DNA of 64,000 bases. Origin: Bryobacteraceae bacterium. GTDB lineage: Bacteria > Acidobacteriota > Terriglobia > Bryobacterales > Bryobacteraceae. The translations under genes were made by a program, and so were the position numbers. The stretch spans positions 7,307 to 71,306 of the forward strand of contig JBGPHT010000015.1 of NCBI GenBank assembly GCA_041484525.1, given 5' to 3'. This document shows positions 14,388 through 29,448 of this stretch, piece after piece. Below the pieces are notes generated by a model. That model did not search any database and was not told where the DNA came from. It saw only the letters and a list, made by a program, of their open reading frames with translations. Position 1 is the stretch's first letter. Every line of letters begins with the position of its first letter.

Positions 14388-15641
14388 TTGTTATATTGTT
14401 ATGGTTCAGGTGGCGTCTCGCGACTGGTAGCCACCTGGTTGCATCCTGATAGGACTTCTTTATTGCGACACCGCTTACTGGATTTGCTCGCCTGCCCGAA
14501 ATGCGGCGGCTTCCCTCTGGAACTTACGGTATTGGAAACCGAATCGGACGCTCCGCCGCGAGTGTCGGGAGTCCGGTGCTCGTCCTGGTGCGCCTGGCAG
14601 AAGGAAGCACCGGAGGGAAAGGCGAGGCCGTGTTCGGAATGCTACGCCATCGAGATCACGGCGGCGATCCTGCATTGTAAGGGATGCGCGGCCGAGTATC
14701 CCGTAATCGACGGCGTCCCGCGGTTCATTCCTGACGTGGACCAGGATTTTCCGGAGTTCTTTCGCCGCTACGCGGATCGATTTCGCAACGCGAAGCCGGT
14801 CGACGCGCACGATTTCCGCCAACTGCACTCCGAGACCAGGCAGAGTTTCGGATTCCAGTGGCTGCGCTTCAAGGTCACCGACCACAAGGAAAACCAGGAA
14901 CACTTTTTCCGGCGGCTCGACATCACTCCCGCCGGCATGAAGGGCAAGATATTCTTTGAAGCCGGCTGCGGCATGGGGCGGTACTTACAAGTGATTGGAG
15001 ACGAGCCCACGGCCGAAGCGGTGGGGCTCGATCTGAGCCTGGCGGTGAATCGAGCGCGCGCCGAGAACCGGCAGAATCCGTTTATCCACGTGATCCAGGG
15101 CAACATCATGGAGCTGCCGCTGCGTGCGCAAACGATCGACTACGTGTACAGCATCGGGGTGCTTCACCATACGCCCGACACGCGGCAGGCATTCCAGAGC
15201 ATCGTGCGGCTGGTCAAGCCGGGCGGCAGCGTCAGCATCTGGGTGTACCACGTGTGGCGCCATTCGGGCGTGCACGGCCTGCAGGCGCTGCATGCTACGT
15301 TGAAGGGCCGGATCACGGACGGCGTGCGCGCGATCACGACGCGGCTGCCGTTCCGAGTCCTGAATGCTCTCTGCTACGTAGCGGTGCCGGGCGGTTGGCT
15401 GCAGCGCAAGATCACAGATTCGCCCGCGCCCATCCGCGCCCTCTTTTCGCCGCTCACGCTGCTGAATCTCTCGATGCACGACCGCTGGGAAGTGCGCGTG
15501 CTCGATACCTTCGACTGGTACTCGCCGCGCTACCAGTGGAAGCACACGGTGCCCGAGGTGGAGGGCTGGTTCCGCGACGCCGGCCTGGCCGACATCACGA
15601 CCCACGGCTTCCCGGTGAGCGTAAGGGGAACGCGGCGCTAG
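14388..15641 (+). CDS. Class I SAM-dependent methyltransferase with an N-terminal Trm112-like zinc-ribbon region
   Basis: LLDLLACPKCGG...ILHCKGCAAEYPVIDGVPRFI is Trm112-like, with extra CSSWC...CSEC pairs inserted. FFEAGCGMGRY is motif I. The start is uncertain: TTG 14388 in the track, with in-frame TTG 14463 also possible. Confidence 0.7.
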   Translation: MLYCYGSGGVSRLVATWLHPDRTSLLRHRLLDLLACPKCGGFPLELTVLETESDAPPRVSGVRCSSWCAWQKEAPEGKARPCSECYAIEITAAILHCKGCAAEYPVIDGVPRFIPDVDQDFPEFFRRYADRFRNAKPVDAHDFRQLHSETRQSFGFQWLRFKVTDHKENQEHFFRRLDITPAGMKGKIFFEAGCGMGRYLQVIGDEPTAEAVGLDLSLAVNRARAENRQNPFIHVIQGNIMELPLRAQTIDYVYSIGVLHHTPDTRQAFQSIVRLVKPGGSVSIWVYHVWRHSGVHGLQALHATLKGRITDGVRAITTRLPFRVLNALCYVAVPGGWLQRKITDSPAPIRALFSPLTLLNLSMHDRWEVRVLDTFDWYSPRYQWKHTVPEVEGWFRDAGLADITTHGFPVSVRGTRR

Positions 15642-15767: not shown

Positions 15768-17654
15768 TCACCCCACCGCAGCAGGCACCCGGCTCGACTT
15801 TTCCAGGTCCTCGAACCACAGCTCCAGCATCAGGAGATCCCACAGTGGACGGCTGTTGTCGCGGCGGCCGCTTTGATGCTCGGTGAGCAGGTGGCGCACG
15901 AATTCGGGCGACACCATATCCCGGTTCAGGAATGCCTGCGAGGTCAGGTGATCCCAAAGGAACGCGCGCAGCTCGCCGCGAAACCAGGCGGCTACGGGGA
16001 CGCCGAAGCCCATCTTGCCGCGGTTCAGCAGCGGCGGCGGCAGCCGGTCGCCGATCGCCTGCAACAGGATTCTTTTTCCCTTGCCGTCGCGTAGTTTCCA
16101 ATGGTGCGGCCAGGACGCCACCAGCTCCGCTAACTCGTGGTCGAGCAGCGGGCAGCGCACTTCGAGCGATGCCGCCATCGACATGCGGTCCACCTTCACC
16201 AGCATGTCGCCTGTCAGGTTCGCCGTGGCTTCGAAATACATGGCCTGCGTCAGCGCTTCCGGATCGCCCGGCAGCAGGCATTCGGCAAATGCCCGCGTCA
16301 GAAAGCCGGCGTCGGCGGGCGCCATCCATTCCGGCTGCAGCAGGGCGCGCCGCAAAAAGTAGGGCCGGTAATTGAACTCGAAGTACCGCTCAAGCGACGA
16401 CGGGCGGCTGATCATCCGCATGTAGTTCTTCCCGTAGGTGCGATACGGCAGGCGCTCCGCCACCCACCCGAGCAGCCGCCGCAGCGCCTGGGGCGTGCGA
16501 TCGTAACCCGCGAGACTTTGCAGCTTGACGAAGCTGTCGTACCCGGCGAACAGTTCGTCGCCGCCATCGCCGGAGAGCGCCACCTTCACGGACCGTGCCG
16601 TAAATTCCGAAACTATGTAGGTCGGGATGGCGGAGGAGTCGGCGAAGGGCTCGCCGAAATGCCGCACCAGTTTTTGCACCAGGTCGAGCGAATTCGGGCG
16701 CACGACGATCTCGTGATGGTCGGTGCCGTATTGCTTCGCCACCATCGAGGCGTAATGCAGTTCGTTGAACGCCGCCTCTTCAAAACCGATGGAGAAAGTT
16801 TTGATCGGCTCGCGCGATTGCAGCGCCATCGATGCCACCACCGAGCTCGAATCGATGCCGCCGCTGAGGAATGCGCCCAGCGGCACGTCTGCGATCATCC
16901 GGATGCGCACGCATTCGTCGAACTTTTCGCGCAGTTGGGCCGCCGCGTCGGCTTCGGTCAGTCGCGGATCTCCACCCGCGCCCGGCTCGGGCAGCCGCCA
17001 GTAGCGACCTTTGCGAACCGTGCCGCCGGGTCCGTATTCCAGCCAGCCGCCGGGCTCGAGCTTGCGGATCGCGCGGAACGCGCTCAGCGGCTCGGGGATG
17101 TAGGAGAACTGGAAGTAGAGCCGGAGCGCGTCGGGATCGACCTCGAGCGGCACGCCCGCCTGCCGCAGCGCCGACAGCTCGCTCGCAAACCAGATTCCCT
17201 CGGGTAGGACGGCGTAGTACAGCGGCTTCTTCCCGAAACGGTCACGCGCCAGCAGCAGCGTCTGCCGGCTCGCGTCCCAAATCGCGAAGGCGAACATGCC
17301 CCGCAGGCGCGCGAGCCCGTCCACGCCTTCCTCTTCGTACAGATGGACCAGCGTCTCGGTGTCGCTGTTGGTTTGAAAGCGGTGGCCGCGGGAGATCAGG
17401 TCGCTGCGGAGTTTCTGATAGTCGTAAATCTCGCCATTGAATACCACCCAGACGGTGCCGTCTTCGTTCGAGATGGGTTGGTGGCCGGTACTCAGGTCGA
17501 TGATGCTGAGCCGGCGCATGCCGATCGAGCAGGGGCCTTCGGTATGGTAGCCCTCATCGTCCGGTCCGCGGTGGCGGATCTGGTCGCACATGGCTTGTAC
17601 GACCACTTGTTCCGCGGCGCCCTGGCGCAACACATATCCGGCTATCCCGCACAT
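15768..17654 (-). CDS. asnB: Asparagine synthase-type glutamine amidotransferase
   Basis: MCGIAGY is an Ntn-Cys2 N-terminus. FLSGGIDSSSV is the PP-loop. The 628-aa size fits. Confidence 0.9.
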   Translation of the reverse strand: MCGIAGYVLRQGAAEQVVVQAMCDQIRHRGPDDEGYHTEGPCSIGMRRLSIIDLSTGHQPISNEDGTVWVVFNGEIYDYQKLRSDLISRGHRFQTNSDTETLVHLYEEEGVDGLARLRGMFAFAIWDASRQTLLLARDRFGKKPLYYAVLPEGIWFASELSALRQAGVPLEVDPDALRLYFQFSYIPEPLSAFRAIRKLEPGGWLEYGPGGTVRKGRYWRLPEPGAGGDPRLTEADAAAQLREKFDECVRIRMIADVPLGAFLSGGIDSSSVVASMALQSREPIKTFSIGFEEAAFNELHYASMVAKQYGTDHHEIVVRPNSLDLVQKLVRHFGEPFADSSAIPTYIVSEFTARSVKVALSGDGGDELFAGYDSFVKLQSLAGYDRTPQALRRLLGWVAERLPYRTYGKNYMRMISRPSSLERYFEFNYRPYFLRRALLQPEWMAPADAGFLTRAFAECLLPGDPEALTQAMYFEATANLTGDMLVKVDRMSMAASLEVRCPLLDHELAELVASWPHHWKLRDGKGKRILLQAIGDRLPPPLLNRGKMGFGVPVAAWFRGELRAFLWDHLTSQAFLNRDMVSPEFVRHLLTEHQSGRRDNSRPLWDLLMLELWFEDLEKSSRVPAAVG

Positions 17655-17684: not shown

Positions 17685-18749
17685 CTAGGTGATCGCAACC
17701 AGCGACCGCTTTTCGGCGTCGGTGCAGCGCTCTTCGCGGCAGCAGCCGGACTCCCATAGCTTCGGACGATTCTCCCAGATTTCGCGGATCGGCTTCTCCT
17801 TGACGTTGCCCACGGGCTTGGCGCCGGTGCACACCGTGACGTCGCCGTTGGCCTGAAATTGCAGCGTGGTCAGGGCCGCGCACGTGGCGTGCTTTTCGTG
17901 CGCCATGTGCGATTGCGTCAGGATCCGCAGCGTATCCGGATTCCGGAAATAAGGGATCATGGCCTCGAGTTGCGCGAAGCTGTTGTCGATGTGCAGCCCC
18001 TGGCGCTTGAGGCGGATCAACTCCTCCACCGCCGCAATCGCGCGCGCCGTGTCCTTCGGCCAGTTTTCGCTATGCTCGAACCACCGCGTATCGTCCGGGG
18101 TGTTGTAGTTCTGCTCGATCGGCTGATAGAAAATATGCATGCCGTCGCGCGAGGCGAATTCCGCCAGCTTCGGGACATCGTCCAGGTTGTGCGACATGAT
18201 CACGGTCTTCAGGCGGATCACGTACTTCAAGTTCTTTTCCTGGCGGACACGCTGCAGCGTTTCGATGGTTAGGTTGGTGAGTTCGAAGAAATCTTCCTTG
18301 CCGCGGACTTTACTGTGCGTGGCGCCCAGGCCATCCACCGAGATGGTGACGCGCGAGGGCTGCGCCAGCGCCAGTTTCTCGATCTTGGTCTGGTCTTTCC
18401 AATAGCCGTGCGTCAGGATCTCCTGGAAAAAGCCCAGGGCGGAGCCAAACGCAACCAGGTCGATGGTGTACGGCTTCAACAGTGCTTCTCCGCCGCTGAA
18501 CCCGACATGCACCGGCCCCAGCCAGGTACGCAGGTCCGTGAGAACCGTCTTCAACTGCTCGAGAGTCGGCCCGTCTTCTTTGCCCTTGTTCTTCCAGATG
18601 TCGCAATGCACGCAGCGGGCGTTGCACAGCTCGGTCAGCAGGAAAACGATCGAGGTCGGCCGGCAATGAGATGCCAACCGTCCTCCCGCAAAATTACGGA
18701 GACGGTAGTTCACGCCCTCATAAACGTGCCGGTACGTATCTGCAAACAC
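17685..18749 (-). CDS. Radical SAM protein with a C-terminal SPASM-like Cys cluster
   Basis: LTELCNARCVHCDIW is the CxxxCxxC motif. The C-terminal CAALTTLQFQANGDVTVCTGAKPVGNV...IWENRP...GCCREERC is SPASM-like. The gene ends 30 nt upstream of asnB. Confidence 0.85.
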   Translation of the reverse strand: MFADTYRHVYEGVNYRLRNFAGGRLASHCRPTSIVFLLTELCNARCVHCDIWKNKGKEDGPTLEQLKTVLTDLRTWLGPVHVGFSGGEALLKPYTIDLVAFGSALGFFQEILTHGYWKDQTKIEKLALAQPSRVTISVDGLGATHSKVRGKEDFFELTNLTIETLQRVRQEKNLKYVIRLKTVIMSHNLDDVPKLAEFASRDGMHIFYQPIEQNYNTPDDTRWFEHSENWPKDTARAIAAVEELIRLKRQGLHIDNSFAQLEAMIPYFRNPDTLRILTQSHMAHEKHATCAALTTLQFQANGDVTVCTGAKPVGNVKEKPIREIWENRPKLWESGCCREERCTDAEKRSLVAIT

Positions 18750-18943: not shown

Positions 18944-20872
18944 ATGTGTGGAATCACCGGCTTCGTATCCCGAAACCCGATTTCCGAACCAGACAGCCTG
19001 GTGGAGCGGATGGCCGCCGTGATCCACCATCGCGGCCCGGATGCCACCAGTTTTTACCGTGACTCCCATGCCCAACTGGGGCACCTGCGCCTGAGCATCA
19101 TCGACCTCGCCACCGGCCAGCAGCCGATGTGCAACGAGACCGGCGACCTGTGGATCATCTACAACGGCGAGATCTTCAATCATGCCGACCTGCGCGGCGA
19201 TCTGGAAGGCGCCGGCCACCGCTACAAGACCCACTGCGACACCGAAACCATCCTGCACTCTTACGAGCAGTACGGCCGGAAGTGCGTCGAGCGCTATCGC
19301 GGTATGTTTGCGTTCGCTATCTGGGATCCGCGCCGCCAGACTCTCTTCTGCGCGCGCGATCGCCTGGGAATCAAGCCGTTTTACTACTACTGGAACGGGT
19401 CGGTCTTCGTCTTCGCCTCCGAGATCAAGGCCATCCTCGAGCACCCCGCGGTTTCGGCGTCCTTCGACGAATCGCTGCTTTCTGAATACTTGGCATTCGG
19501 ATATATCAGCGGCGAGCGGACGCTGTTCTCCGGCATCCGCAAGCTGCTGCCCGGTCATACGCTGACGCTCACGCCTGAATCGCTCGAGATCGAGCCCTAT
19601 TGGGACGTGCCGCGCGACGCGCCCGCCGAAACACGCCCCGACGAGGAGTGGATCGCCGAGTGCCGCGAGCGCCTCGAGCAGACCGTCCGCATGCGCCTGA
19701 TGAGCGATGTTCCGCTCGGCATGTTCCTGAGCGGCGGCGTGGATTCGAGCGCCATCGCCGCTCTGATGAAGCGCATGGTCACGGGCCCGGTCAAGACCTT
19801 CGCCGTGGGTTACGCCGAAGCCGAGTACAGCGAACTCGGCTACGCGCGCCAGGTCGCCCAAAGCATTGGCACCGACCATCACGAGGTGCGGGTGAGCATG
19901 GAGGATTTCTTCAACGCCCTGCCCACGCTGGTATGGCATGAAGACGAGCCGATCGCCTGGCCCTCGAGTGTTTCGCTGTACTTCGTTTCCCGGCTGGCGT
20001 CGCAACAGGTAAAGGTGGTGCTCACCGGCGAAGGCAGCGACGAGCTTTTCGCGGGCTACAGCCGGTACCGCTTTTACGAAATGAACCAGGCGGGCCTGCG
20101 GTATTACAAGCTGCTGCCCGGCCCCCTGCGGCGCTTCATCCGCGCGCGTGTGGAGGATTCGCGGCTGCTCTCGGGCGCCGTGCGTCGCAAACTGCAGCAC
20201 TCCTTCGTGGGCCGCGGCGAGACGCTCGAATCGCTCTACCTGGACAATTTCTACTCCGCATTTTCCGCCGCCGGGCAGCATCAACTCCTGCTCCCCGGCG
20301 CACCCCACGCGGGAACTTACGATGGCTATCTGGGGTATTGGAATTCGGCCGCGAATCTCCCAGTGCTGCAGCGTCTGCTGTACACCGACCAGAAGACGTA
20401 CCTCGTCGAACTGCTGATGAAGCAGGACCAGATGAGCATGGCCTGCTCGATTGAGAGCCGCGTCCCGTTCCTCGACCACCCCTTCGTGGAGTTTGCCGCG
20501 CGCGTCCCCCGGCACATGAAGATCCGCAACGGCGAGGCGAAGTACATTCTGAAGCGGGCGGTGGAGGATGTGCTGCCGCGCGACATCATCTACCGCACCA
20601 AGATGGGATTCCCCACGCCGTTGCGGCAGTGGCTGCGGGATCCGCGCGCCGACCGGCTGCTGGAGCTCCTGAGCGACCCGGATGGCCTGCTGGCAGCCTA
20701 TCTGGACGGCCGGCAACTGGAGTCCTTGATCGAGAAGCACAAGTCCGGTTCAGTGGACGCTACCGACCGCATCTGGCGGCTGTTGAACTTGCAAGTGTGG
20801 GGCGACCTCTTCTTCACCGGCCGCCGCGAGCAGCGGCTGGAAGGTCTGATGGCGGTGGCGTATCGAGCGTGA
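18944..20872 (+). CDS. asnB: Asparagine synthase-type glutamine amidotransferase (second paralog)
   Basis: MCGITGF N-terminus and FLSGGVDSSAI PP-loop. The gene is 642 aa and divergent from the radical SAM gene. Confidence 0.9.
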   Translation: MCGITGFVSRNPISEPDSLVERMAAVIHHRGPDATSFYRDSHAQLGHLRLSIIDLATGQQPMCNETGDLWIIYNGEIFNHADLRGDLEGAGHRYKTHCDTETILHSYEQYGRKCVERYRGMFAFAIWDPRRQTLFCARDRLGIKPFYYYWNGSVFVFASEIKAILEHPAVSASFDESLLSEYLAFGYISGERTLFSGIRKLLPGHTLTLTPESLEIEPYWDVPRDAPAETRPDEEWIAECRERLEQTVRMRLMSDVPLGMFLSGGVDSSAIAALMKRMVTGPVKTFAVGYAEAEYSELGYARQVAQSIGTDHHEVRVSMEDFFNALPTLVWHEDEPIAWPSSVSLYFVSRLASQQVKVVLTGEGSDELFAGYSRYRFYEMNQAGLRYYKLLPGPLRRFIRARVEDSRLLSGAVRRKLQHSFVGRGETLESLYLDNFYSAFSAAGQHQLLLPGAPHAGTYDGYLGYWNSAANLPVLQRLLYTDQKTYLVELLMKQDQMSMACSIESRVPFLDHPFVEFAARVPRHMKIRNGEAKYILKRAVEDVLPRDIIYRTKMGFPTPLRQWLRDPRADRLLELLSDPDGLLAAYLDGRQLESLIEKHKSGSVDATDRIWRLLNLQVWGDLFFTGRREQRLEGLMAVAYRA

Positions 20873-21040
20873 AAGGCGACGTGAGGGAGAGAGCGCCCCA
20901 CGAGGCCGTTTTGAGCGCACGTCGAATTGACCTACTCGTATTACAATTAAGGAGTTTCCGGATGACATGCTGTCTGAGTGATGGTCGCCTCGCATTCTCG
21001 CTGAAGAAGTGCGGCAAACCATTGGCCCGGCCTTCATTGA

Positions 21041-22588
21041 ATGCCTAGACTTGCCTTCAAGCCCGATTCCAGTTTCTTCCGAAAGATCGCGATTGGTGCA
21101 ATTGGCACACGTGCGATAACCGCTGAGCTGGGCCAGTTTGGCCACCATATCGCTGAACTTGAACGAGGGTCGCTCGATACGAAGTTGTGGAAGGACGTTA
21201 AACGTAAGCGCGTCCGTATCCCCGATCTGGTCTGCGTCTCGTGCGGACTTCGCATTGAAAGCCGAGCGAAAACAAGAACTGAACTCACGATGTCGCACAG
21301 TCCGAACGAACAGGTACGGGCCTGGGATTTCGGCATGGTCGATTACATCGCGTTTCCGATCTGTCAGACCTTCGGGGAGAAGTACTGGAGCGCCGGGCAC
21401 TTGGGGCACGCTTCCTCTTATTGGCACGAACGGAATTGGATCAAGTGGGAAGTAAGCGGAAGAATCAACTACTTCCAAGTGGCGGCTTTTCGAGCGACGC
21501 CGCATGCAAGAATCGCGACGAAGGGTGTTACTGAAGGCTCTGAGACTAGCATCGGCTGGAACGCCATGTTCTCGACGAGGTCCGGTACTATTGATGCTGC
21601 CGGTAGCGGGAGGATCACCATTCGCCGGGGCTCTGATGGCCACCGTAACACGCGTACTGTTCCTGCCGGCTTACAACTCTTCGTCTCCGCGGGCGAGGCA
21701 GTCGAGGAGAGTCAAGTTGTCGCTGCCGTTGTATCTCCTGTTCCGCGTAGTGCCCTAGCGTGTCCGCGAAGGATGCCGGCCAACCACATCAGCATTCTCC
21801 TGGCATCACGTGAGAGGACGCAGAGGTTCGCTGGTGTTAAGCTCGCCCGGCTCAGGGCCGAGCCAATGTACCGATCTGCAGTGGAAAGCCTCGCTTTCGA
21901 CAGCGAAGAAGATGTTTACATTCGTCTCGAAGGCGCCTCATATCTGGCTTCCGTGTGTGGACTCTCGGCCCGTGAGCTTTTCCGTCCTTATCTTTCCAGC
22001 GTCGATGACCGAACGCAACTTGAGGCCGTGAGTGCTCTCGGGGAGACGGCCGCAACAGAAGCCGTGGAACTCCTCAGTGAGATTCTTGATGACGCAACTC
22101 AGCCATACTTCGTGCGTAGCGCGGCGGCGTGGTGCCTTGGCCGGCAGGGCACCGAAGAAGCCACGGCGCGCCTTGTTCGCGCCTTCTCGGATGTTGACCG
22201 CAAGATCCGAGAGGAAGCTCTCGAAGGGCTGGTTTCTGTGGGCGGCGCAGCCACGCACGTGCTGCTTGCCGGTTTGCGCGAAATGAATGAAGATATCGTT
22301 GCAGGGTGTGCAGAGGCGCTGCGGCGGCAGCCGCTTCCTCCGGAGATCCTTTCCCGCATCAACGAGGATCTCCACGCGCCCCAGCCGTCGAAATGGGTTG
22401 CGTGGCTCGCCGGTTTTCTTCCGCGTGATGCGACCACCGCCGCAATCGCAGAACTACAGAACACCGCCCCTCAGCTTCATTACGCGATTAGCTTGCTTTG
22501 GTCTTTCATAGATAGTTGGATCTCCCGACGGTGGGAGCTAAATCCTGGCGCAACTTTCCCTGAGAGCGATGAGGCATATGAAGTTTAG
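21041..22588 (+). CDS. Hypothetical fusion protein: N-terminal putative PD-(D/E)xK-like nuclease region plus C-terminal HEAT-repeat domain. It is the candidate restriction partner of the adjacent methyltransferase.
   Basis: 515-aa ORF overlapping the MTase start by 20 nt. The N-terminus has AELERG...RIPDLVCVSCGLRIESRAK (a possible E...PD...E-x-R/K arrangement). The C-terminus has repeated helical units (LEAVSALGETAATEAVELL, VRSAAAWCLGRQGTEEATARL, IREEALEGLVSVGG) typical of HEAT/PBS-lyase repeats. GC is lower than in the flanks. Confidence 0.5.
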   Translation: MPRLAFKPDSSFFRKIAIGAIGTRAITAELGQFGHHIAELERGSLDTKLWKDVKRKRVRIPDLVCVSCGLRIESRAKTRTELTMSHSPNEQVRAWDFGMVDYIAFPICQTFGEKYWSAGHLGHASSYWHERNWIKWEVSGRINYFQVAAFRATPHARIATKGVTEGSETSIGWNAMFSTRSGTIDAAGSGRITIRRGSDGHRNTRTVPAGLQLFVSAGEAVEESQVVAAVVSPVPRSALACPRRMPANHISILLASRERTQRFAGVKLARLRAEPMYRSAVESLAFDSEEDVYIRLEGASYLASVCGLSARELFRPYLSSVDDRTQLEAVSALGETAATEAVELLSEILDDATQPYFVRSAAAWCLGRQGTEEATARLVRAFSDVDRKIREEALEGLVSVGGAATHVLLAGLREMNEDIVAGCAEALRRQPLPPEILSRINEDLHAPQPSKWVAWLAGFLPRDATTAAIAELQNTAPQLHYAISLLWSFIDSWISRRWELNPGATFPESDEAYEV

Positions 22589-23594
22589 TTTTGACCCCTC
22601 TACCGTCGTGTACCGTACAGAGTACGGAATGCAGCTCGCGGGCGACAGCAAGGACGTCATTACATCCCTTCCAGACAGTTGCGTGGATCTACTAATCACC
22701 AGCCCGCCTTTCGCGCTCCTGCGTCAAAAGAGCTACGGCAACGAAAAGCAGGACGCCTATGTCGCGTGGCTGAGCGATTTCGGTAAAGCCGCGATGCGCG
22801 TGTTGAAGGACAGCGGTAGCTTCGTGCTTGATCTTGGGGGAGCATATCAACGCGGAAGACCTGTTCGCTCGTTGTACAACTTTCGGGTGCTCTTACAGTT
22901 CTGTGATGAACTTGGCTACGAATTAGCTGAGGAATTCTTCTGGTACAACCCCGCCAAGCTACCGTCTCCGATTGAGTGGGTAAACAAACGCAAGATTCGA
23001 GTGAAGGACGCAGTTAACACTGTTTGGTGGCTTTCAAAAACAGCCACGCCGAAGGCGGACGTGACGAAAGTTCTCGTCCCGTACTCCGAGAGAATGAAGA
23101 CTCTGCTCAAGGACCCCGGAAAATTCTATCGTCCAAAGGAACGCCCCTCTGGGCACGATATCGCTGATTCATTCGGAAGGAACAATGACGGAGCCATTCC
23201 ATCGAATCTACTTCAGATCCCAAATACCGATAGCAATTCGCACTACCTGAGAATCTGCAAGAGCCTCGGCGAGGAGAGCCATCCCGCTAGATTTCCGGCG
23301 GACCTGCCACGGTTCTTTATCAAGTTCCTCACAGACCCTGGCGATGTCGTGATCGATATTTTTTCCGGCTCGAATACAACCGGCTACGTTGCCGAAGAAC
23401 TTCGACGGCGATGGATCGGTATTGAACTTGATCGGTCGTATGCTGTTCTCTCAGGCATCCGCTTTATGGACAATGCGCCGGTGCCGGCGATCCAAAAAGC
23501 ACTTGCTGAAATGCGGCGAGGCACTACCCTGGATCTATCTGGCGGCTCCGAGGGCCGTCGGCAAGCTGAACTCAGTTTTCAACCACACACGTAG
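22569..23594 (+). CDS. DNA methyltransferase, beta-class N4/N6 type (motif IV SPPF before motif I)
   Basis: DLLITSPPFAL is motif IV near the N-terminus. HPARFPADLPRFFIKFLTDPGDVVIDIFSGSNTTG is motif I at the C-terminus. A sampled line had about 48% GC. Confidence 0.85.
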   Translation: MRHMKFSFDPSTVVYRTEYGMQLAGDSKDVITSLPDSCVDLLITSPPFALLRQKSYGNEKQDAYVAWLSDFGKAAMRVLKDSGSFVLDLGGAYQRGRPVRSLYNFRVLLQFCDELGYELAEEFFWYNPAKLPSPIEWVNKRKIRVKDAVNTVWWLSKTATPKADVTKVLVPYSERMKTLLKDPGKFYRPKERPSGHDIADSFGRNNDGAIPSNLLQIPNTDSNSHYLRICKSLGEESHPARFPADLPRFFIKFLTDPGDVVIDIFSGSNTTGYVAEELRRRWIGIELDRSYAVLSGIRFMDNAPVPAIQKALAEMRRGTTLDLSGGSEGRRQAELSFQPHT

Positions 23595-23789
23595 AGTAGC
23601 AGTCGGCGAGTAAACGGTCGTAGGCTCCAAATCCGTCCCACAGATGCCGTGGTGTGAGCCGCGGCCAAGTAGAAAGTTCCGGTTCGACGTGTCATCACTT
23701 GAAGAACGGCCGTCAGGCGGGCACACTGGAAGCGTGAAGCCGATCCGCCAGACACCCTCCAATCGGACTCGCGGCTCCGCGGCGCACGT

Positions 23790-24893
23790 ATGAACGCGCC
23801 CCTGCCGGTGCTCCTGATGGCGCGGACGCTCGACCTCGGCGGCACCGAGCGGCAGATGACGCAGATTGCCCTGACGCTCGACCGCTCGCGCTTTGAGCCC
23901 CATGTGGCCTGCTTTCACGCCGATGGATTGCGCGGCGAGGAATTGCGCGCCGCGGGCGTCCCCATCGTCGAGCTTCCGGTGCGCTCGTTTCGCGGGCCTT
24001 CGGCTCTTCACGGCGCCGTCCTGCTAGGTCGCTACCTGCGCCGCCACAGCATCCCACTCGTCCATACCTTCGACGTTCCGATGAACGTCTTCGGCGTCCC
24101 CGCGGCGCGGCTCTGGGGCACGCCGTATGTTCTCTCGAGTCAGCGCGCCCATCGCCATCTGACGCCCGGCACGATGCGCCATCTGCTCCGCCTCACGGAC
24201 CGAATGGTGGATGCCATCGTCGTGAACTCGGAATCCGTAGCGCGCGAAATGACGGAAGAAGACCGCACCCCTCCGAGCCTGCTGCGGCTTTGCTATAACG
24301 GCATCGATACCAGCGTCTTCCGCCGCCAGGATTGCGAGCCGCCGGAACCATTGCGCGAAGCCTCACTCGTCATCGGAACCCTCTGTGCGCTGCGCCCGGA
24401 AAAGAATCTACCGATGCTGCTCGCCGCCTTCGCACGCGTCGGCGGGAAAGGCATCAAGCTTGCCATCGTGGGCAGCGGCCCGGAACAACCCAAGTTGATC
24501 GAAGAGGCGCGCCGACTAGGGATTGCCGGCGACTGCTGGTTCGAGCCCTCGACCGCCGAGGTTCCCCGCTGGCTTAGCGCCATGGACATATTCGTGCTGC
24601 CGTCCGATTCCGAGGCGCTCTCAAACTCCCTGATGGAAGCGATGGCGTGTGGATGCTGCGCCGCCGCGTCCCGCGTGGGAGGCAACCTCGAGCTGGTACG
24701 CCATCTGGACACGGGCCTCCTGTTCCGCGCCGGCGACGTAGACGACCTGACAGCTTGCCTCGCCCGTCTCATCGCCGACGAGGAGTTGCGTACGTCGCTG
24801 GCCGCAGCCGGAACGGCTCGCATGCATCGGGAGTTCTCGCTCGAGGCCTCTGCCTCCCGGATGGCGGAGATTTACGAATCGGTGAGCAAATAA
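23790..24893 (+). CDS. Glycosyltransferase family 4 (GT-B)
   Basis: LLMARTLDLGGTERQ N-terminus and EALSNSLMEAMACGCCAAASRVGGNLELVRHLDTGLLF. Confidence 0.85.
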   Translation: MNAPLPVLLMARTLDLGGTERQMTQIALTLDRSRFEPHVACFHADGLRGEELRAAGVPIVELPVRSFRGPSALHGAVLLGRYLRRHSIPLVHTFDVPMNVFGVPAARLWGTPYVLSSQRAHRHLTPGTMRHLLRLTDRMVDAIVVNSESVAREMTEEDRTPPSLLRLCYNGIDTSVFRRQDCEPPEPLREASLVIGTLCALRPEKNLPMLLAAFARVGGKGIKLAIVGSGPEQPKLIEEARRLGIAGDCWFEPSTAEVPRWLSAMDIFVLPSDSEALSNSLMEAMACGCCAAASRVGGNLELVRHLDTGLLFRAGDVDDLTACLARLIADEELRTSLAAAGTARMHREFSLEASASRMAEIYESVSK

Positions 24894-24996
24894 GATATTC
24901 ACCGCCGAGACGCCGAGATCGCCGAGAAAAATGCAAGGCCTTGTCTTAATGTTTTTGTGTTCTCGGCGATCTCGGCGTCTCGGCGGTGAATATCTT
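24892..24996. repeat. GC-rich palindromic intergenic element, copy 2 (perfect 37-bp arms, 31-nt loop)
   Basis: AAGATATTCACCGCCGAGACGCCGAGATCGCCGAGAA (24892-24928) is the exact reverse complement of 24960-24996. It lies between the convergent stops of the GT4 gene (24893) and the 25003 gene. Confidence 0.9.
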
Positions 24997-25002
24997 CTTG
25001 CG

Positions 25003-26739
25003 CTATTTCGCAACTCCGAAGCCCGTCTCGATCTGAATCACCCGATGCGCGTTCGGGACTCCGAAGTTCGAGTCCGCCACCACGTACGCCCCGTCGGCCG
25101 AGAGGCACGCTCGCGGAGTACTCCAATACCCGTGCGAATCCTCGTTGGTAAATTGCACGCTGCGATGTTGGGCCAGACGCCGGATCTCGGCGCCGTTGTC
25201 GCGCACCACGAAGATCTCGGACAGATGCGGTGTACGGCGCATCGGGCTCTCGTCATCCGGCCGCCGCGCGGATTCGAATCCACCGTACGTCGTCGCCACC
25301 ACACAATAAGGCGACGAGCGCGCGCAGCCGATGTGCAGGTCCGCCCACACGTCCTGGCCGCCGCAGCGGAAAAGCGTCATCACGCGCCGGAGGCCGCCTC
25401 CCAATTCCACCGGCAGTCCCATGCGGACGCCCTGGTTGAGTTGCAGGGTCACCAGGTCGTACTCGCAGGGCGAGGTGAATTCGAGGCCCAGCATCATCAA
25501 CTGGTTGCCGCGGGGATCTTCGAAGAGGTCGCTGTGGCCGCCGCCGATGCAGCGCTCGCCCGCTTCGCAGATCCCGTTCGCGTTGCCCTTTCCGTAGCCC
25601 ACCTGCTCCGGTCCGACGGTTTCCAGTTCGAGGCTGCCGGCGGCCTCGTTCACAGAAAACGTCAACATCGCGGGGTTAGCCACCGCCACCACGTACCGCT
25701 TTCCGCTGGTCTTGTCCACGCCCTTGGACATGGTCGGGAAGTCGACTTTGAACGGGCCGCCCGGAACAGATTTCAGATCGGCGCAGTAAGCTTTCCGCGC
25801 CGCCACGGAGTAAGCGCAGAGCTGCTGCTGCTCCGGCGCGGACAGCGGCAGCCAGTTGTCCTTCGAGCCTTCGCCCGTGCCGCCCACCGTGATGCTGGAG
25901 AAGCGGTAGGGCGCCTTCGAGAAGTCCGCCAGCACGGTCTTCTTGCCGGTCGCGAGATCGTACCGCAAAATCGCCGCGTGGTTTTCAGCCGGGCCGACTG
26001 CATAGGCCACCGCATCGTCCTGCGCATCCAGGATCGTGCCTTCGAGCGGCGCCTTGACGTTCCGCACGAGGACGCTCCCGGTGTTCAGATCCACCATCTG
26101 GTTCTCGCCCGATTTCCCCACCAGGACCATCCGGTTCCGCGCCGTGATCGCGCTGGGGGACGAATATCCGTGCAGCGCCCCCGGCCCGGTCAGCACGGTG
26201 ACGCGCGCACCAAAATTCGGGTCCACGTACGACGTGCCCACTTCAGGAGGCTGGAACCGTCCGGGAGGCCGCTCGTTGGGAACCACGCAGGTCGCTGGAT
26301 CCGGCAGCTCCGGAACGGCAGTACATCCGTGCGGCCCGTCTGGGTAGGTGACGGCGGGATTGGGCACGGCCTGGGCGATCCGCAAGGTGACGTGCACCGT
26401 CGTGCCCTTCGACGGGTCGCCGCCCTCCGGATAGACGGAGAGCGTCTGCTCGTAAGTGCCGGCCTTTTGCCGGACCAGCCACCACCCCTGGACCCCTACC
26501 GCCACGACGTCGTTTCCGGCGCCCTTGGCTTTGCTCAGCGACAACATGTCGCCCGGGCCGGTCCCCATCCGGATATTCCACGGCCCCGAGGCCTGGATGG
26601 CCAGGGACTGCGTTTCCCGAAGGATAAAGCCGCTGGTGACGGCTTCGAACCGCAGGGAATCGGGCAACGCGTTCTGCGCCAGCAGCGGAAGTCCGAGGGC
26701 TGCTCCCAACAGCGCCAGCGCGCGGGTACGGGTGGGCAT
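25003..26739 (-). CDS. Secreted hypothetical protein (beta-propeller/PD40-like features)
   Basis: Signal peptide MPTRTRALALLGAALGLPLLAQ, with the start at the complement of 26737-26739. The C-terminal CLSADGAYVVADSNFG resembles a PD40/TolB-type blade. I found no catalytic motif. Confidence 0.55.
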   Translation of the reverse strand: MPTRTRALALLGAALGLPLLAQNALPDSLRFEAVTSGFILRETQSLAIQASGPWNIRMGTGPGDMLSLSKAKGAGNDVVAVGVQGWWLVRQKAGTYEQTLSVYPEGGDPSKGTTVHVTLRIAQAVPNPAVTYPDGPHGCTAVPELPDPATCVVPNERPPGRFQPPEVGTSYVDPNFGARVTVLTGPGALHGYSSPSAITARNRMVLVGKSGENQMVDLNTGSVLVRNVKAPLEGTILDAQDDAVAYAVGPAENHAAILRYDLATGKKTVLADFSKAPYRFSSITVGGTGEGSKDNWLPLSAPEQQQLCAYSVAARKAYCADLKSVPGGPFKVDFPTMSKGVDKTSGKRYVVAVANPAMLTFSVNEAAGSLELETVGPEQVGYGKGNANGICEAGERCIGGGHSDLFEDPRGNQLMMLGLEFTSPCEYDLVTLQLNQGVRMGLPVELGGGLRRVMTLFRCGGQDVWADLHIGCARSSPYCVVATTYGGFESARRPDDESPMRRTPHLSEIFVVRDNGAEIRRLAQHRSVQFTNEDSHGYWSTPRACLSADGAYVVADSNFGVPNAHRVIQIETGFGVAK

Positions 26740-26811
26740 GCAGCCCAATTCTAACACCCGATTACTATCCTAAGTTCACCGCAAAACTTTGAAATCACGG
26801 GCTGTGCGACA

Positions 26812-28209
26812 ATGAGAGGGCGCTCGTTCATGTCCACGGGAACTTATCCAGCTACGCTGAATCAATCCGGCGGCCTTGCCTTCGGCCTCATCGATACCCC
26901 GCTCCGCCGGTTGGGCGCCGTGGTCATTACGATTTTCCTGTTCTTCGCCTACGGAAGAATCCTGGATTTTCGCATGGCCAAGCTGCATATCCCTTACGTC
27001 CTTTCGTTGTTCGCGCTGTTTTGCGCCGCGCTCTCGGGCGGTCTGCCGCGGGCCCTCCTCTCTCGCATCGGGGTATTCATGACGGCGCTTACGGCGTGGA
27101 TGATGGTGTGCGTGCCGTTCGCCTTCTGGAGAAGCAACTCGCTCGAGTTGATCACCGGCAAGTGGTTCAAGGCGTACATGCTGGCGATCCTGCTGATCGC
27201 GCTGCTGGGGTCGGTAAAAGAATGCCATCGTGCCATGAACTCGCTGGCCTACGGCACCCTGCTGGTAGCGTTGCTGGCGCTCTATTTTCATGCCACGTCG
27301 CGCGGCCGGCTCATTTTGCCCGAGACGGCTTTGACCAACCCGAACGATCTGGCGCAGGTGTTGCTGATGGGGTTGCCGTTTCTGGTGATTATGACGTTTT
27401 CAGGCAACAACGTGGTGCGTCGGGTGTTCGCCAGCGGAGCCGTCATGATCGTCATGTACGTGATTCTGAAAACCGCCTCGCGCGGCGCCCTGATCACGAT
27501 TGGGGTCTGCAGTCTGCTGGTGTTTTTCAAAGCGTCCATGCTGACCAAGTTCAAGCTGGTGGCGCTCGGAATGATCGGCGTAGTGGTGTTTGTCGCCACC
27601 ATGCCGCCTGAGGTCCGATCCCGCTACATGACGCTTTTCTCGAGCTCGCAGGGGAAGTTTGCCGATAGCAATGATGACGAGAGCGCGATCGAGTCCACCG
27701 CCGAGCGTAAGGCGATCCTGATCCAAGCGGTCAAGATCACCCTCCGGCGTCCGCTGTTTGGAGTAGGCCCGGCGAACTTCCCGGATTACTCGGCGGCCGA
27801 TTCCCACGCTTCGGGGGTGAGAGCGCACTGGCGCATGACGCACAACACTTACCTCGAATGGTCGAGCGAATGCGGTTTTCCCGGTGTGATTCTTTTCCTG
27901 GCAGGTGTTTTCTTCTGTCTGCGCCGGATGTCTAAAACCACCAAGCGTTTCGAAGGGAATCCCGCCACCAGGCACCTGGTGCAGATCGCCGGCGCGCTGC
28001 AGTTCTCGCTGCTCACCTACTGCGCGAGTTCGTTCTTCGCCAGCACGGCTTACGAAATCCTGTTCCCTACCCTCGCCGGTTTGACCATGGCCTTTCTATA
28101 CGCCGTTGAGAACGAGCAGTTGGTCGAAACGCTCGCGCCGGCTCCCGTCGAGTGGATGCCTCCGCAGAAGAATTTCATTCGCTCCGCTTCGTCCGCTCCG
28201 CTGCGGTAG
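26812..28209 (+). CDS. O-antigen ligase/polymerase-like (Wzy_C-type) polytopic membrane protein
   Basis: About 10 or more hydrophobic segments. KTASRGALITIGVCSLL plus a large loop with HNTYLEW is typical of the O-antigen ligase domain family. Confidence 0.7.
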   Translation: MRGRSFMSTGTYPATLNQSGGLAFGLIDTPLRRLGAVVITIFLFFAYGRILDFRMAKLHIPYVLSLFALFCAALSGGLPRALLSRIGVFMTALTAWMMVCVPFAFWRSNSLELITGKWFKAYMLAILLIALLGSVKECHRAMNSLAYGTLLVALLALYFHATSRGRLILPETALTNPNDLAQVLLMGLPFLVIMTFSGNNVVRRVFASGAVMIVMYVILKTASRGALITIGVCSLLVFFKASMLTKFKLVALGMIGVVVFVATMPPEVRSRYMTLFSSSQGKFADSNDDESAIESTAERKAILIQAVKITLRRPLFGVGPANFPDYSAADSHASGVRAHWRMTHNTYLEWSSECGFPGVILFLAGVFFCLRRMSKTTKRFEGNPATRHLVQIAGALQFSLLTYCASSFFASTAYEILFPTLAGLTMAFLYAVENEQLVETLAPAPVEWMPPQKNFIRSASSAPLR

Positions 28210-28224
28210 CGCCCCCATCCCCGC

Positions 28225-29448
28225 ATGAAGATTCTCTGGGTCAAGGCCGGCGGCTTGGTGCCCTGCGATTCCGGCGGCAAGATCCGCAGTTTTCAAATCC
28301 TGCAGCAACTGGCCCGCCGCCACTCCGTCACCCTGTTCACCTTCTATCCGGAATATCCGGACGATCAGCACCCCGCGCTTACCGGCTTCGCCGAGGTCAT
28401 CCCCGTTCCCATTCATCTGCCGCCCAATCGTACCCTCGACGATTACCTGCTCTATGCGCGCCGCCTCTTCTCGCCGCACCCCTACAGCATGGAGAAGTAT
28501 TACACCCCGATGGTGCGCCAGAAAACCGCCGAGGTACAGGCGCGCGGCGGCTTCGACGTGTTGGTCTGCGATTTTCTGACGCCCGCGGGGTTGATCGACT
28601 GGCGCCTCCCCATGGCTAAGATCCTTTTCACGCACAACGTGGAAGCGCAGATCTGGCGGCGCCACGCCCAGGTGACGCGGCATCCGGTTTGGAAAGCGGT
28701 CTATTGGCGCGAGGCGCGCATGCTGGCCCGCGCCGAGCAGAGATATTCGCAGCTTGCCGATCACGTGCTGACCGTATCCGAGAGCGACCGGACCGCCTTC
28801 CGCAACCACGTGTCCGCCGAGAAAGTCACCGCCATCCCGACCGGCGTCGACGTCGAGTACTTCCACCCGGGAGCGGAGCCCATCGAGCCCGATTCCATCG
28901 TCTTCACCGGGTCGATGGATTGGATGCCGAACGAGGACGGCATTCTATTCTTCGCGCAGGAAATCCTGCCCAAGATCCACCAGGAGATCCCGGCCGCTAA
29001 GCTGTGGGTGGTCGGGCGGCGCCCCACGAAGCCGGTCGAGGCCCTGGCCGGCGACCGCGTCCGCGTCACGGGAACCGTCGACGACATCCGTCCATATGTG
29101 CAGCGCGCGGGCGTCTACGTGGTGCCCTTGCGCAGCGGCAGCGGCACACGGATCAAGATTTTCGAGGCGATGGCGATGGGTAAGGCGGTGGTCTCGACAA
29201 CGGTTGGCGCCGAAGGCCTGCCCGTGACCCACGGCCGCGATATCGTGATCGCCGATGATCCCGCCGCGTTCGCCGCGAGCGTGGTGCGCCTGCTGCGCGA
29301 CCCCGAGTCGGCGCGCCGCCTGGGGAGCGAGGCGCGCAAGCTGGTCGAAAGCAAATACGGTTGGGGGGCGGTGGCGGATAGTTTCGAACCTATTCTGCAA
29401 TCGCTGGCCGGCCGCGGCGCTACCCGGGCGCGGCTGGTGCGCGAGTAA
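28225..29448 (+). CDS. Glycosyltransferase family 4 (resembles the PEP-CTERM/EpsH-locus-associated stp1-type sugar transferases)
   Basis: FTGSMDWMPNEDGILFF and GSGTRIKIFEAMAMGKAVVSTTVGAEGL. The family assignment is from memory of the MDW-x-PN motif. Confidence 0.75.
   Translation: MKILWVKAGGLVPCDSGGKIRSFQILQQLARRHSVTLFTFYPEYPDDQHPALTGFAEVIPVPIHLPPNRTLDDYLLYARRLFSPHPYSMEKYYTPMVRQKTAEVQARGGFDVLVCDFLTPAGLIDWRLPMAKILFTHNVEAQIWRRHAQVTRHPVWKAVYWREARMLARAEQRYSQLADHVLTVSESDRTAFRNHVSAEKVTAIPTGVDVEYFHPGAEPIEPDSIVFTGSMDWMPNEDGILFFAQEILPKIHQEIPAAKLWVVGRRPTKPVEALAGDRVRVTGTVDDIRPYVQRAGVYVVPLRSGSGTRIKIFEAMAMGKAVVSTTVGAEGLPVTHGRDIVIADDPAAFAASVVRLLRDPESARRLGSEARKLVESKYGWGAVADSFEPILQSLAGRGATRARLVRE

What the first reader, a model, noticed from the sequence alone, without database searches (positions are those of the whole stretch)
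21041..22588. Putative nuclease fused to a HEAT-repeat domain as the partner of a DNA methyltransferase
The 515-aa ORF overlaps the start of a clear beta-class DNA MTase by 20 nt, so it sits where a restriction enzyme would be expected. Its first ~110 aa contain an E...PD...(I-E-S-R-A-K) arrangement compatible with a PD-(D/E)xK core. Its last ~220 aa are alpha-helical HEAT/PBS-lyase-like repeats. I do not know of a described Type II restriction enzyme architecture with a HEAT-repeat domain. It could be a new specificity or regulatory module, or a different kind of MTase-linked defence effector.
Basis: inference. Interest (0 to 1): 0.65.

Follow-up and report, generated by a model that had tools for sequence, protein, structure and literature searches.

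The report
Unannotated HEAT-tailed CAGCTG restriction enzyme family
The gene next to a PvuII-type DNA methyltransferase is very probably the restriction enzyme that cuts CAGCTG, but it belongs to a large, unrecognised family with an unusual three-part build (small nuclease-like core, a beta-barrel-like module, and a HEAT-repeat solenoid) that public databases label only as 'HEAT repeat protein'.

Summary
A 515-aa ORF (21041-22588, +) overlaps by 20 nt a 341-aa methyltransferase that is about 65% identical to M.PvuII (N4-cytosine, CAGCTG). Its C-terminal half is HEAT/PBS-lyase repeats.

The interpretation (restriction partner, PD-(D/E)xK-like core) is largely supported, by context rather than by homology:
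- Relatives sit beside a DNA methyltransferase in 81/81 testable loci of the window's clade and 75/75 of a remote clade (25-30% identity).
- In the remote clade, 72/80 loci have a C-type controller gene abutting the gene.
- CAGCTG is absent from the 64-kb window (17-27 expected) and is the most depleted palindromic hexamer in host DNA (102 vs 636), even where the partner methyltransferase is an unrelated type.

E41, D62, E73, [R/K]75 and K77 are invariant or nearly so.

No Pfam, NCBIfam, PADLOC, PHROGs or PDB sequence match covers the core, and sources name members only 'hypothetical' or 'HEAT repeat protein'.

Verdict: a new architectural variant of Type II restriction enzyme. Cleavage activity and the HEAT domain's role are untested.

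The parts
21041..22588 (+). Putative restriction endonuclease gene (515 aa), R position of the cassette
   Evidence: ORF confirmed. About 170 close homologs and 360 cluster representatives. Always next to an MTase. AlphaFold2 model pLDDT 90.6, pTM 0.88.
21041..21370 (+). N-terminal core (aa 1-110): helix 10-31, then strands 37-39, 63-65, 71-74, 82-86, 102-105. Candidate catalytic residues E41, D62, E73, R75, K77. Basic loop K48-R59.
   Evidence: Residue conservation. Marginal Foldseek match to Hjc resolvase 2wcw/2wiw: prob 0.84-0.94, TM 0.41-0.45, E about 1e-2. No sequence-family match. Net charge about +5.
21359..21520 (+). Long beta-hairpin insertion (aa ~107-160) specific to the window's clade; shortened or absent in remote relatives
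   Evidence: Secondary structure of the model. Gap in remote members in alignment A5.
21521..21760 (+). Barrel-sandwich-hybrid-like beta domain (aa ~161-240) with invariant K161, E168, W173, G182
   Evidence: Foldseek: 59-77 aligned columns (64-65 for the rmsd 1.2 A matches) to the RNA polymerase beta hybrid domain and cytochrome f, E about 5e-3. Weak Pfam hints RPOC_hybrid and Apocytochr_F_C. Conservation.
21761..21865 (+). Linker helices (aa ~241-275) with conserved C241 and the SRERTQRF motif
   Evidence: Alignments A1 and A2. Model helices 249-254 and 259-271.
21866..22585 (+). HEAT/PBS-lyase-like alpha-solenoid (aa ~276-515), net acidic, with a conserved C-terminal W-rich segment
   Evidence: Pfam HEAT_2 and HEAT_PBS. 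alphaRep PDB sequence hits. Foldseek alphaRep hits. Charge -12 to -14. Present in all loci and in remote members.
22569..23594 (+). M.PvuII-type N4-cytosine DNA methyltransferase gene (341 aa), overlapping the R-position gene by 20 nt
   Evidence: PDB 1boo, 1e-121, about 65% identity over residues 14-323. PF01555. PADLOC MTase_II, 8e-145.
20873..21040 (.). 168-bp upstream intergenic region with no controller (C) gene; the promoter was not identified
   Evidence: Sequence read. No sigma-70-like site found in 20700-23900.

Best explanation
The two genes form a horizontally acquired Type II restriction-modification cassette aimed at CAGCTG. The downstream M.PvuII-type enzyme methylates the host's CAGCTG sites at N4 of cytosine. 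The 515-aa protein is the cognate endonuclease that cuts unmethylated CAGCTG in incoming DNA. It is not related to R.PvuII. It is built from three modules: (i) a small basic N-terminal core that most likely has a PD-(D/E)xK-type fold, with E41, D62, E73 and R75/K77 as the metal-binding and catalytic set; (ii) a barrel-sandwich-hybrid beta domain; and (iii) an acidic HEAT solenoid that packs against the core. The solenoid probably serves as a dimerisation, scaffold or regulatory module and not as a DNA-backbone clamp. In this clade R and M are co-oriented and overlap, so they are probably co-transcribed. Remote clades use a C-protein-controlled divergent layout. What is shown: gene linkage, site avoidance, domain architecture and residue conservation. 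What is inferred: cleavage activity, the exact fold class, the catalytic residues, and the roles of the BSH and HEAT domains.
For: 1. An M.PvuII-like MTase lies directly downstream on the same strand in 81/83 loci from about 80 species of many phyla, and the two exceptions are contig ends. Three further metagenome loci agree.
2. In the remote clade (25-30% identity, same three-module architecture), an MTase is adjacent in 75/75 testable loci. A C-type HTH gene abuts the gene in 72/80 loci. The C protein's best solved relatives are C.BclI (2e-16) and C.AhdI (6e-13). A C stop codon within +/-20 nt of the R start codon is the rule for C-controlled systems (PMC2997769).
3. CAGCTG occurs 0 times in the 64-kb window against 17-27 expected, the most depleted of the 64 palindromic hexamers. 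Over 77 loci and 1.34 Mb it is 102 observed vs 636 expected, ratio 0.16, with the next palindrome at 0.46. In remote-clade loci it is 3 vs 49 with PvuII-like MTases and 55 vs 183 with an unrelated 576-aa MTase. The specificity therefore follows the R-position protein.
4. About 12 of 81 loci have frameshifted or truncated R-position genes beside intact MTases, as expected for a toxic gene.
5. The model is confident (pLDDT 90.6, pTM 0.88). The core's only nuclease-like fold match is the Hjc resolvase. D62 opens strand 2 and E73-x-[R/K]75 lies on strand 3.
6. No R.PvuII-like gene is present in the window or any locus.
7. Cassette GC is 52.9-57.6% against 62.9% for the window.
Against: No sequence or profile method links the core to any nuclease family. 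hhalign against a real Hjc profile gives only 12% probability. The Foldseek match to Hjc is marginal (E about 1e-2, rmsd 6-11 A), and I could not inspect active-site geometry. The motif is E-x-[R/K]-x-K rather than the canonical ExK. A few loci with intact R and M show no CAGCTG depletion (L029 15 vs 16; L022, L060, L032). No promoter was detected. No enzymatic data exist. REBASE could not be searched.
Confidence: 0.78

Rival explanations
1. The protein is the CAGCTG endonuclease, but its catalytic core is not a PD-(D/E)xK fold. It would be a new or other nuclease fold that only superficially resembles Hjc.
For: All sequence and profile tests against known nucleases are negative. The Foldseek match is marginal. 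The first acidic residue sits on strand 1 and not on helix 1, and an extra strand (82-86, carrying invariant S85) follows strand 3.
Against: The order helix - strand - strand(D) - strand(E-x-K/R) and the D-to-E spacing (11 residues, against 13 in Hjc) fit the PD-(D/E)xK core. H86 is replaced by D or E in 6/29 sequences and the cysteines are not invariant, which argues against His-Me or zinc-dependent folds.
Confidence: 0.15
2. The HEAT protein is not a nuclease. It is an accessory, regulatory or specificity factor of the MTase, and CAGCTG avoidance is caused by another enzyme elsewhere in the genome.
For: No nuclease homology is detectable. HEAT repeats are typically protein-interaction modules. 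Some carriers show no site avoidance.
Against: Only this gene, the MTase and sometimes a C gene are conserved across more than 150 unrelated neighbourhoods. C proteins are known as activators of R genes (PMC2997769). Avoidance follows this protein across two unrelated MTase families. No R.PvuII-like gene is nearby. The gene decays while the MTase is kept.
Confidence: 0.05
3. The window's copy is an inactive relic: an orphan MTase beside a silenced R gene, with CAGCTG depletion left over from past activity.
For: No promoter was found. Relatives are disrupted in about 15% of loci. Depletion persists in loci with disrupted R genes.
Against: The window's ORF is full length, has the family's N-terminus, and keeps every invariant residue. 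Zero sites in 64 kb suggests continuing selection.
Confidence: 0.1

Closest known systems
PvuII restriction-modification system (R.PvuII / M.PvuII / C.PvuII)
   Same: The MTase is a close homolog of M.PvuII (1e-121, about 65% identity). The inferred target CAGCTG is the same. Remote clades have the same M <- C -> R layout, with the C gene abutting the R gene.
   Different: It is 515 aa with three modules. The window's clade has no C gene, and R precedes and overlaps M.
Hjc archaeal Holliday-junction resolvase (Pfam PF01870), a minimal PD-(D/E)xK nuclease
   Same: It is the best nuclease fold match to residues ~1-155. The helix 1 - strand 1 register is the same in hhalign. The order and spacing of D...E-x-K/R are comparable.
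   Different: There is no significant sequence or profile similarity (probability 12%). The core has a 15-residue basic loop inserted between strands 1 and 2. The helix-1 glutamate is not conserved, and E41 on strand 1 takes its place. Biological role and partners differ.
PBS-lyase/alphaRep-type HEAT repeat proteins (Pfam HEAT_2, HEAT_PBS; NblB, CpcE, YibA)
   Same: The repeat sequence and fold of residues ~290-430 match.
   Different: These proteins are stand-alone interaction or lyase proteins. None is fused to a nuclease-like core or linked to an MTase. The C-terminal W-rich segment is specific to this family.
AlkD/AlkC HEAT-like-repeat DNA glycosylases (own knowledge; not tested here)
   Same: They are a precedent for a HEAT-like solenoid in a DNA-acting enzyme.
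   Different: AlkD binds DNA on a basic concave face. The solenoid here is net acidic, -12 to -14. No sequence or fold hit to AlkD appeared among the listed matches.
Barrel-sandwich-hybrid domains (RNA polymerase beta hybrid domain, cytochrome f small domain, lipoyl/biotinyl carriers)
   Same: Local fold match over 59-77 aligned columns, with rmsd as low as 1.2 A over 64-65 columns. Weak Pfam hints.
   Different: I do not know of a role for this fold in restriction enzymes. Here it carries the family-invariant residues K161, E168 and W173.

Membership tests
Type II restriction-modification system | Separate, adjacent R and M genes that are inherited together | tested here: met
   20-nt overlap in the window. 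Linkage in 81/81 and 75/75 testable loci in unrelated neighbourhoods.
Type II restriction-modification system | A cognate DNA methyltransferase with catalytic motifs | tested here: met
   M.PvuII homolog at 1e-121, with SPPF and FxGxG motifs.
Type II restriction-modification system | Selection against the recognition site in host DNA | tested here: met
   CAGCTG 0 vs 17-27 in the window; 102 vs 636 across loci; the most depleted palindrome in three independent locus sets.
Type II restriction-modification system | Mg2+-dependent cleavage at or near the unmethylated site, blocked by the cognate methylation | not testable with these tools
   Needs enzyme assays.
PD-(D/E)xK nuclease superfamily | alpha-beta-beta-beta-alpha-beta core fold | tested here: inconclusive
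   Foldseek match to Hjc (2wcw/2wiw): prob 0.84-0.94, TM 0.41-0.45, E about 1e-2, rmsd 6-11 A. The order of secondary-structure elements is compatible.
PD-(D/E)xK nuclease superfamily | Catalytic D at the start of strand 2 and (D/E)-x-K on strand 3, conserved across the family | tested here: met
   D62 29/29 at strand 62/63-65. E73 29/29 on strand 71-74. Position 75 is R in 25 and K in 4; K77 29/29; E41 28/29. The variant motif is E-x-[R/K]-x-K. Geometry was not inspected.
PD-(D/E)xK nuclease superfamily | Detectable sequence or profile similarity to a known member family | tested here: not met
   No Pfam, NCBIfam, PADLOC, PHROGs or PDB-profile hit. hhalign against an Hjc profile gives 12% probability.
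R.PvuII family | Sequence similarity to R.PvuII and a homodimeric ~157-aa single-domain enzyme | tested here: not met
   BLASTP E > 1. tblastn finds nothing in the window or loci. R.PvuII did not appear in the PDB sequence search of the full protein or in the top 50 fold matches.
HEAT / PBS-lyase repeat proteins | Tandem ~30-aa helix-turn-helix repeats that match the Pfam models above threshold | tested here: met
   HEAT_2 52.5 bits (cutoff 27.7) and HEAT_PBS 31.9 bits (cutoff 20.9). alphaRep fold matches.
C-protein-controlled R-M systems | A small HTH controller gene directly upstream of the R gene and abutting it | tested here: not met
   The window has no ORF for a C protein in the 168-bp upstream region. 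The feature is met in the remote clade, in 72/80 loci.

The most novel reading that the evidence does not exclude
The family founds a new structural class of Type II restriction enzyme, in which a minimal nuclease core works only as part of a rigid assembly with a barrel-sandwich-hybrid domain and an acidic HEAT solenoid. In this reading the solenoid and BSH domain take a direct part in recognising CAGCTG, in dimerisation, or in gating the basic DNA-binding cleft (an intramolecular DNA mimic). Target recognition or activation would then work differently from every described Type II enzyme.
Probability: 0.25. Interest if true: 0.75.

Novelty: new variant of a known kind. Interest (0 to 1): 0.6.

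Why it matters
Restriction enzymes that recognise the same site with unrelated folds are textbook cases of convergent evolution and a source of new tools. This would be a non-homologous isoschizomer of PvuII with a domain architecture (nuclease core, barrel-sandwich hybrid, HEAT solenoid) that I could not find described for any restriction enzyme.

The family is large: 360 clusters at 50% identity, in about 160 GTDB species from many bacterial phyla and from archaea. In the 80 genome loci examined every source is a metagenome-assembled genome, and members are annotated only as 'HEAT repeat protein'. Current R-M and defence annotation pipelines therefore miss them and mislabel the partner MTases as orphans.

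The family pairs with two unrelated MTase types while keeping the same site avoidance. That makes it a clean system for studying how R and M specificities are matched. The conserved acidic HEAT solenoid poses a concrete structural question that can be tested.

Tried and rejected
- Sequence similarity to R.PvuII: none.
- Pfam, NCBIfam, PADLOC and PHROGs scans of the core, for single sequences and for 29-41 family members at permissive thresholds: no nuclease family found.
- HMM profiles of the N-terminal module and of the diverse core against all PDB sequences: only noise. The recurrent weak match to the RNA polymerase beta-prime zinc ribbon (E about 1-4) is not significant.
- Structural zinc site formed by C65/C68/C108/C241: rejected, because C68 (25/29) and C108 (15/29) are not invariant.
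- His-Me/HNH idea based on S85-H86: rejected, because H86 is D or E in 6/29 sequences.
- Foldseek of the full-length model: dominated by alphaRep/HEAT hits. The viral structure library was uninformative.
- hhalign against Hjc, as a single sequence and as a profile: the register is consistent but the result is not significant.
- tblastn against plasmid and phage collections, and a viral-contig scan: no relatives of the window's clade.
- Flanking repeats or mobile-element scars around the cassette: none convincing.
- HEAT as a generic DNA-backbone clamp in the manner of AlkD: disfavoured by its net charge of -12 to -14.
- HEAT as a substitute for C-protein control: disfavoured, because the C-controlled clades keep the HEAT domain.
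- Loss of catalytic residues as the reason some loci show no depletion: not the case.

Full report
OBSERVATION

The window holds an ATG-initiated ORF at 21041-22588 (+) of 515 codons. The next ORF on the same strand, 22569-23594 (341 aa), overlaps it by 20 nt. That downstream protein is clearly a beta-class DNA methyltransferase:
- Pfam N6_N4_Mtase, 4e-39.
- PADLOC Type II MTase model, 8e-145.
- Closest solved relative M.PvuII (1boo), 1e-121 and about 65% identity over residues 14-323, with the SPPF motif typical of N4-cytosine enzymes.

The C-terminal half of the 515-aa protein matches HEAT_2 (6e-14) and HEAT_PBS (1e-7), and matches designed alphaRep proteins in the PDB.

The flanking genes belong to a polysaccharide-biosynthesis cluster: two asparagine synthases, a radical-SAM/SPASM protein, GT4 glycosyltransferases and a Wzy-type protein. 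The two-gene cassette has lower GC (57.6% and 52.9%) than the window (62.9%), so it was acquired horizontally.

THE GENE IS REAL AND WIDESPREAD

The N-terminal 274 aa alone finds 172 proteins in metagenomes at 45-70% identity. A scan of one genome per GTDB species finds 160 encoded relatives, of which the 80 best loci were kept. All 80 are metagenome-assembled genomes. They include Acidobacteriota, Planctomycetota, Gemmatimonadota, Armatimonadota, Cyanobacteria, Chloroflexota, NC10, Verrucomicrobiota, Proteobacteria and archaeal Methanotrichaceae.

An exhaustive HMMER search with a profile of the core finds 360 cluster representatives at E <= 1e-3. The distant ones (25-30% identity, 485-525 aa) keep the same overall build, including the HEAT tail. 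Where public sources name members at all, they call them 'hypothetical protein' or 'HEAT repeat domain-containing protein'.

LINKAGE

In the window's clade, an M.PvuII-like MTase (62-75% identical to the window's) lies directly downstream on the same strand in 81 of 83 loci. The two exceptions are contigs that end before that point. The surrounding genes differ from locus to locus, so the conserved unit is the gene pair.

In a remote clade sampled from metagenomes (80 loci):
- All 75 loci with enough upstream DNA carry an adjacent MTase, and 72 of the 80 loci have a small HTH gene abutting the start of the HEAT-protein gene.
- The best solved relatives of that small protein are the R-M controller proteins C.BclI (2e-16) and C.AhdI (6e-13).
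- The layout M <- C -> R, with the C stop codon within a few nucleotides of the R start codon, is the PvuII layout and the rule in C-controlled systems (PMC2997769).
- Examples lie on a conjugative element (TrwC relaxase and T4SS genes), next to Tn7/Mu-like transposition genes, and near an integrase.

SITE AVOIDANCE

M.PvuII methylates CAGCTG. CAGCTG does not occur once in the 64-kb window, against 16.6 +/- 4.5 in dinucleotide shuffles and 17-27 under Markov orders 1, 3 and 4. It is the most depleted of all 64 palindromic hexamers, and related sites such as CCGCGG and CTGCAG are at expectation.

Over 77 loci of the window's clade (1.34 Mb), CAGCTG is 102 observed against 636 expected (ratio 0.16), with the next palindrome at 0.46.

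In the remote clade, CAGCTG is again the most depleted palindrome in both subsets:
- 18 loci with PvuII-like MTases: 3 observed against 49 expected.
- 55 loci whose MTase is an unrelated 576-aa N6_N4 enzyme: 55 against 183.

The factor common to all CAGCTG-avoiding hosts is therefore the HEAT-containing protein. To my knowledge, N4-methylcytosine does not create the mutational site loss seen with 5-methylcytosine, so selection by a cognate endonuclease is the natural reading.

About 12 of 81 loci have frameshifted or truncated copies of the gene next to an intact MTase. This is the usual fate of toxic restriction genes, although some of these cases may be assembly errors.

STRUCTURE

AlphaFold2 with an 89-sequence alignment gives a confident full-length model (pLDDT 90.6, pTM 0.88). 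The N-terminal 275 aa modelled alone score pLDDT 81.6. Loops 44-60 and 90-100 lose confidence when the HEAT region is left out, which suggests that they contact it.

Foldseek against the PDB resolves three modules:
- Residues ~276-500 are a HEAT solenoid (alphaRep matches, E about 1e-7).
- Residues ~170-235 superpose on the barrel-sandwich-hybrid domain of RNA polymerase beta and on cytochrome f. The best matches have rmsd 1.2 A over 64-65 aligned columns (E about 5e-3).
- Residues ~1-155 find, as their only nuclease-like match, the archaeal Holliday-junction resolvase Hjc, a minimal PD-(D/E)xK enzyme. The match is marginal: prob 0.84-0.94, TM 0.41-0.45 normalised to Hjc, E about 1e-2, rmsd 6-11 A.

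The predicted order of elements fits the PD-(D/E)xK core: helix 10-31; strand 37-39 followed by E41; strand 63-65 (62-65 in the N-terminal-only model) opened by P61-D62; strand 71-74 carrying E73, followed by R75 and K77.

Across 29 diverse members:
- D62, E73 and K77 are invariant.
- E41 is present in 28 of 29.
- Position 75 is always basic (25 R, 4 K).

Sequence methods do not confirm the fold. No Pfam, NCBIfam, PADLOC, PHROGs or PDB-profile hit covers the core. hhalign against a real Hjc profile aligns only helix 1 and strand 1, with 12% probability.

I therefore treat 'PD-(D/E)xK-like' as the most likely fold and not as an established one. Zinc-ribbon and His-Me alternatives are disfavoured because the cysteines and H86 are not invariant.

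WHAT THE HEAT DOMAIN MIGHT DO

The core is basic (mean net charge about +5). The HEAT solenoid is consistently acidic (-12 to -14). This argues against a generic DNA-backbone clamp of the AlkD kind. It fits a dimerisation or scaffold module, or a gate over the basic DNA-binding surface. The domain is kept in the C-controlled clades too, so it is not a replacement for C-protein control. These points are inference, because no multimer or DNA-complex model could be run.

MECHANISM PROPOSED

This is a Type II system, probably Type IIP, aimed at CAGCTG. The MTase protects host sites by N4-methylation. The 515-aa enzyme cleaves unmethylated sites in incoming DNA using a metal-dependent centre formed by E41, D62, E73 and R75/K77. 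In the window's clade R and M overlap and are probably co-transcribed. Linkage, site avoidance, architecture and residue conservation are shown. Catalysis, cut position, oligomeric state and the roles of the domains are inferred.

RIVALS

- A nuclease with a different fold remains possible (about 0.15).
- A non-nuclease accessory protein is hard to reconcile with the two-gene conservation, the C-gene control, and avoidance that follows this protein across two MTase families (about 0.05).
- The window's copy could be silent (about 0.1), but it is intact and keeps every invariant residue.
- A few carriers with intact genes show no CAGCTG depletion (L029 15 vs 16; L022, L060, L032). Recent acquisition is the simplest explanation, but it is untested.

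NOVELTY

The system type is classical. The endonuclease family is what is new. It is unrelated to R.PvuII, lies outside every sequence library searched, is not named as a restriction enzyme in any source record seen, and has a core-BSH-HEAT architecture that I could not find in the literature.

Two caveats apply. REBASE could not be queried, and new Type II folds are discovered regularly. I rate it a new variant of a known kind, of moderate-to-good interest.

Noticed in passing
L089:2909-4639 (-) and 57 of the loci L094-L173: A second, unrelated 576-aa N6_N4 MTase partners the remote clade. Its motif I (FAGSGMTG) is at the N-terminus, a different motif order from M.PvuII. Its hosts also avoid CAGCTG (55 observed vs 183 expected). 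It may be an undescribed CAGCTG methyltransferase type.
   Followed up: partly
L029, L022, L060, L032 (whole loci): These loci carry intact R and M genes with all candidate catalytic residues, yet CAGCTG is at expectation (for example L029, 15 observed vs 16 expected). This may reflect recent acquisition or a silent R gene.
   Followed up: partly
P0094 (352 aa, from a 2.3-Mb contig); L012:5623-8229: Apparent in-frame fusions of the R-protein N-terminus (~260 aa) to the C-terminal part of the MTase (motif I region). These could be deletion derivatives or assembly artefacts.
   Followed up: no
window 15768-17654 (-), 17685-18749 (-), 18944-20872 (+): Two paralogous glutamine-dependent asparagine synthase genes flank a radical-SAM/SPASM gene, inside a polysaccharide cluster (GT4 at 23790-24893 and 28225-29448, Wzy-like at 26812-28209). 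The R-M cassette is inserted between the second asparagine synthase gene and the first GT4 gene.
   Followed up: partly
window 24931-26754 (+) and 25003-26757 (-): A 607-aa ORF with no Pfam match is almost fully overlapped by a 584-aa antisense ORF. Which strand codes was not resolved.
   Followed up: no
window 14388-15641 (+): A class I SAM methyltransferase with an N-terminal Trm112p-like zinc-ribbon domain lies next to the polysaccharide genes.
   Followed up: no
window ~30000-62000: GC skew is persistently negative (about -0.05 to -0.15 per 2-kb bin) from about 30 kb onward, but near zero before that. This suggests a change in gene orientation or replication-strand bias.
   Followed up: no
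L084:5765-7461 and L085 (P0191): The C-R-M version of the system sits between a TrwC-type relaxase and a T4SS gene set (TrbI, CagX, VirB8, TrbL), so it lies on a conjugative element in a 43% GC Deltaproteobacteria MAG.
   Followed up: partly
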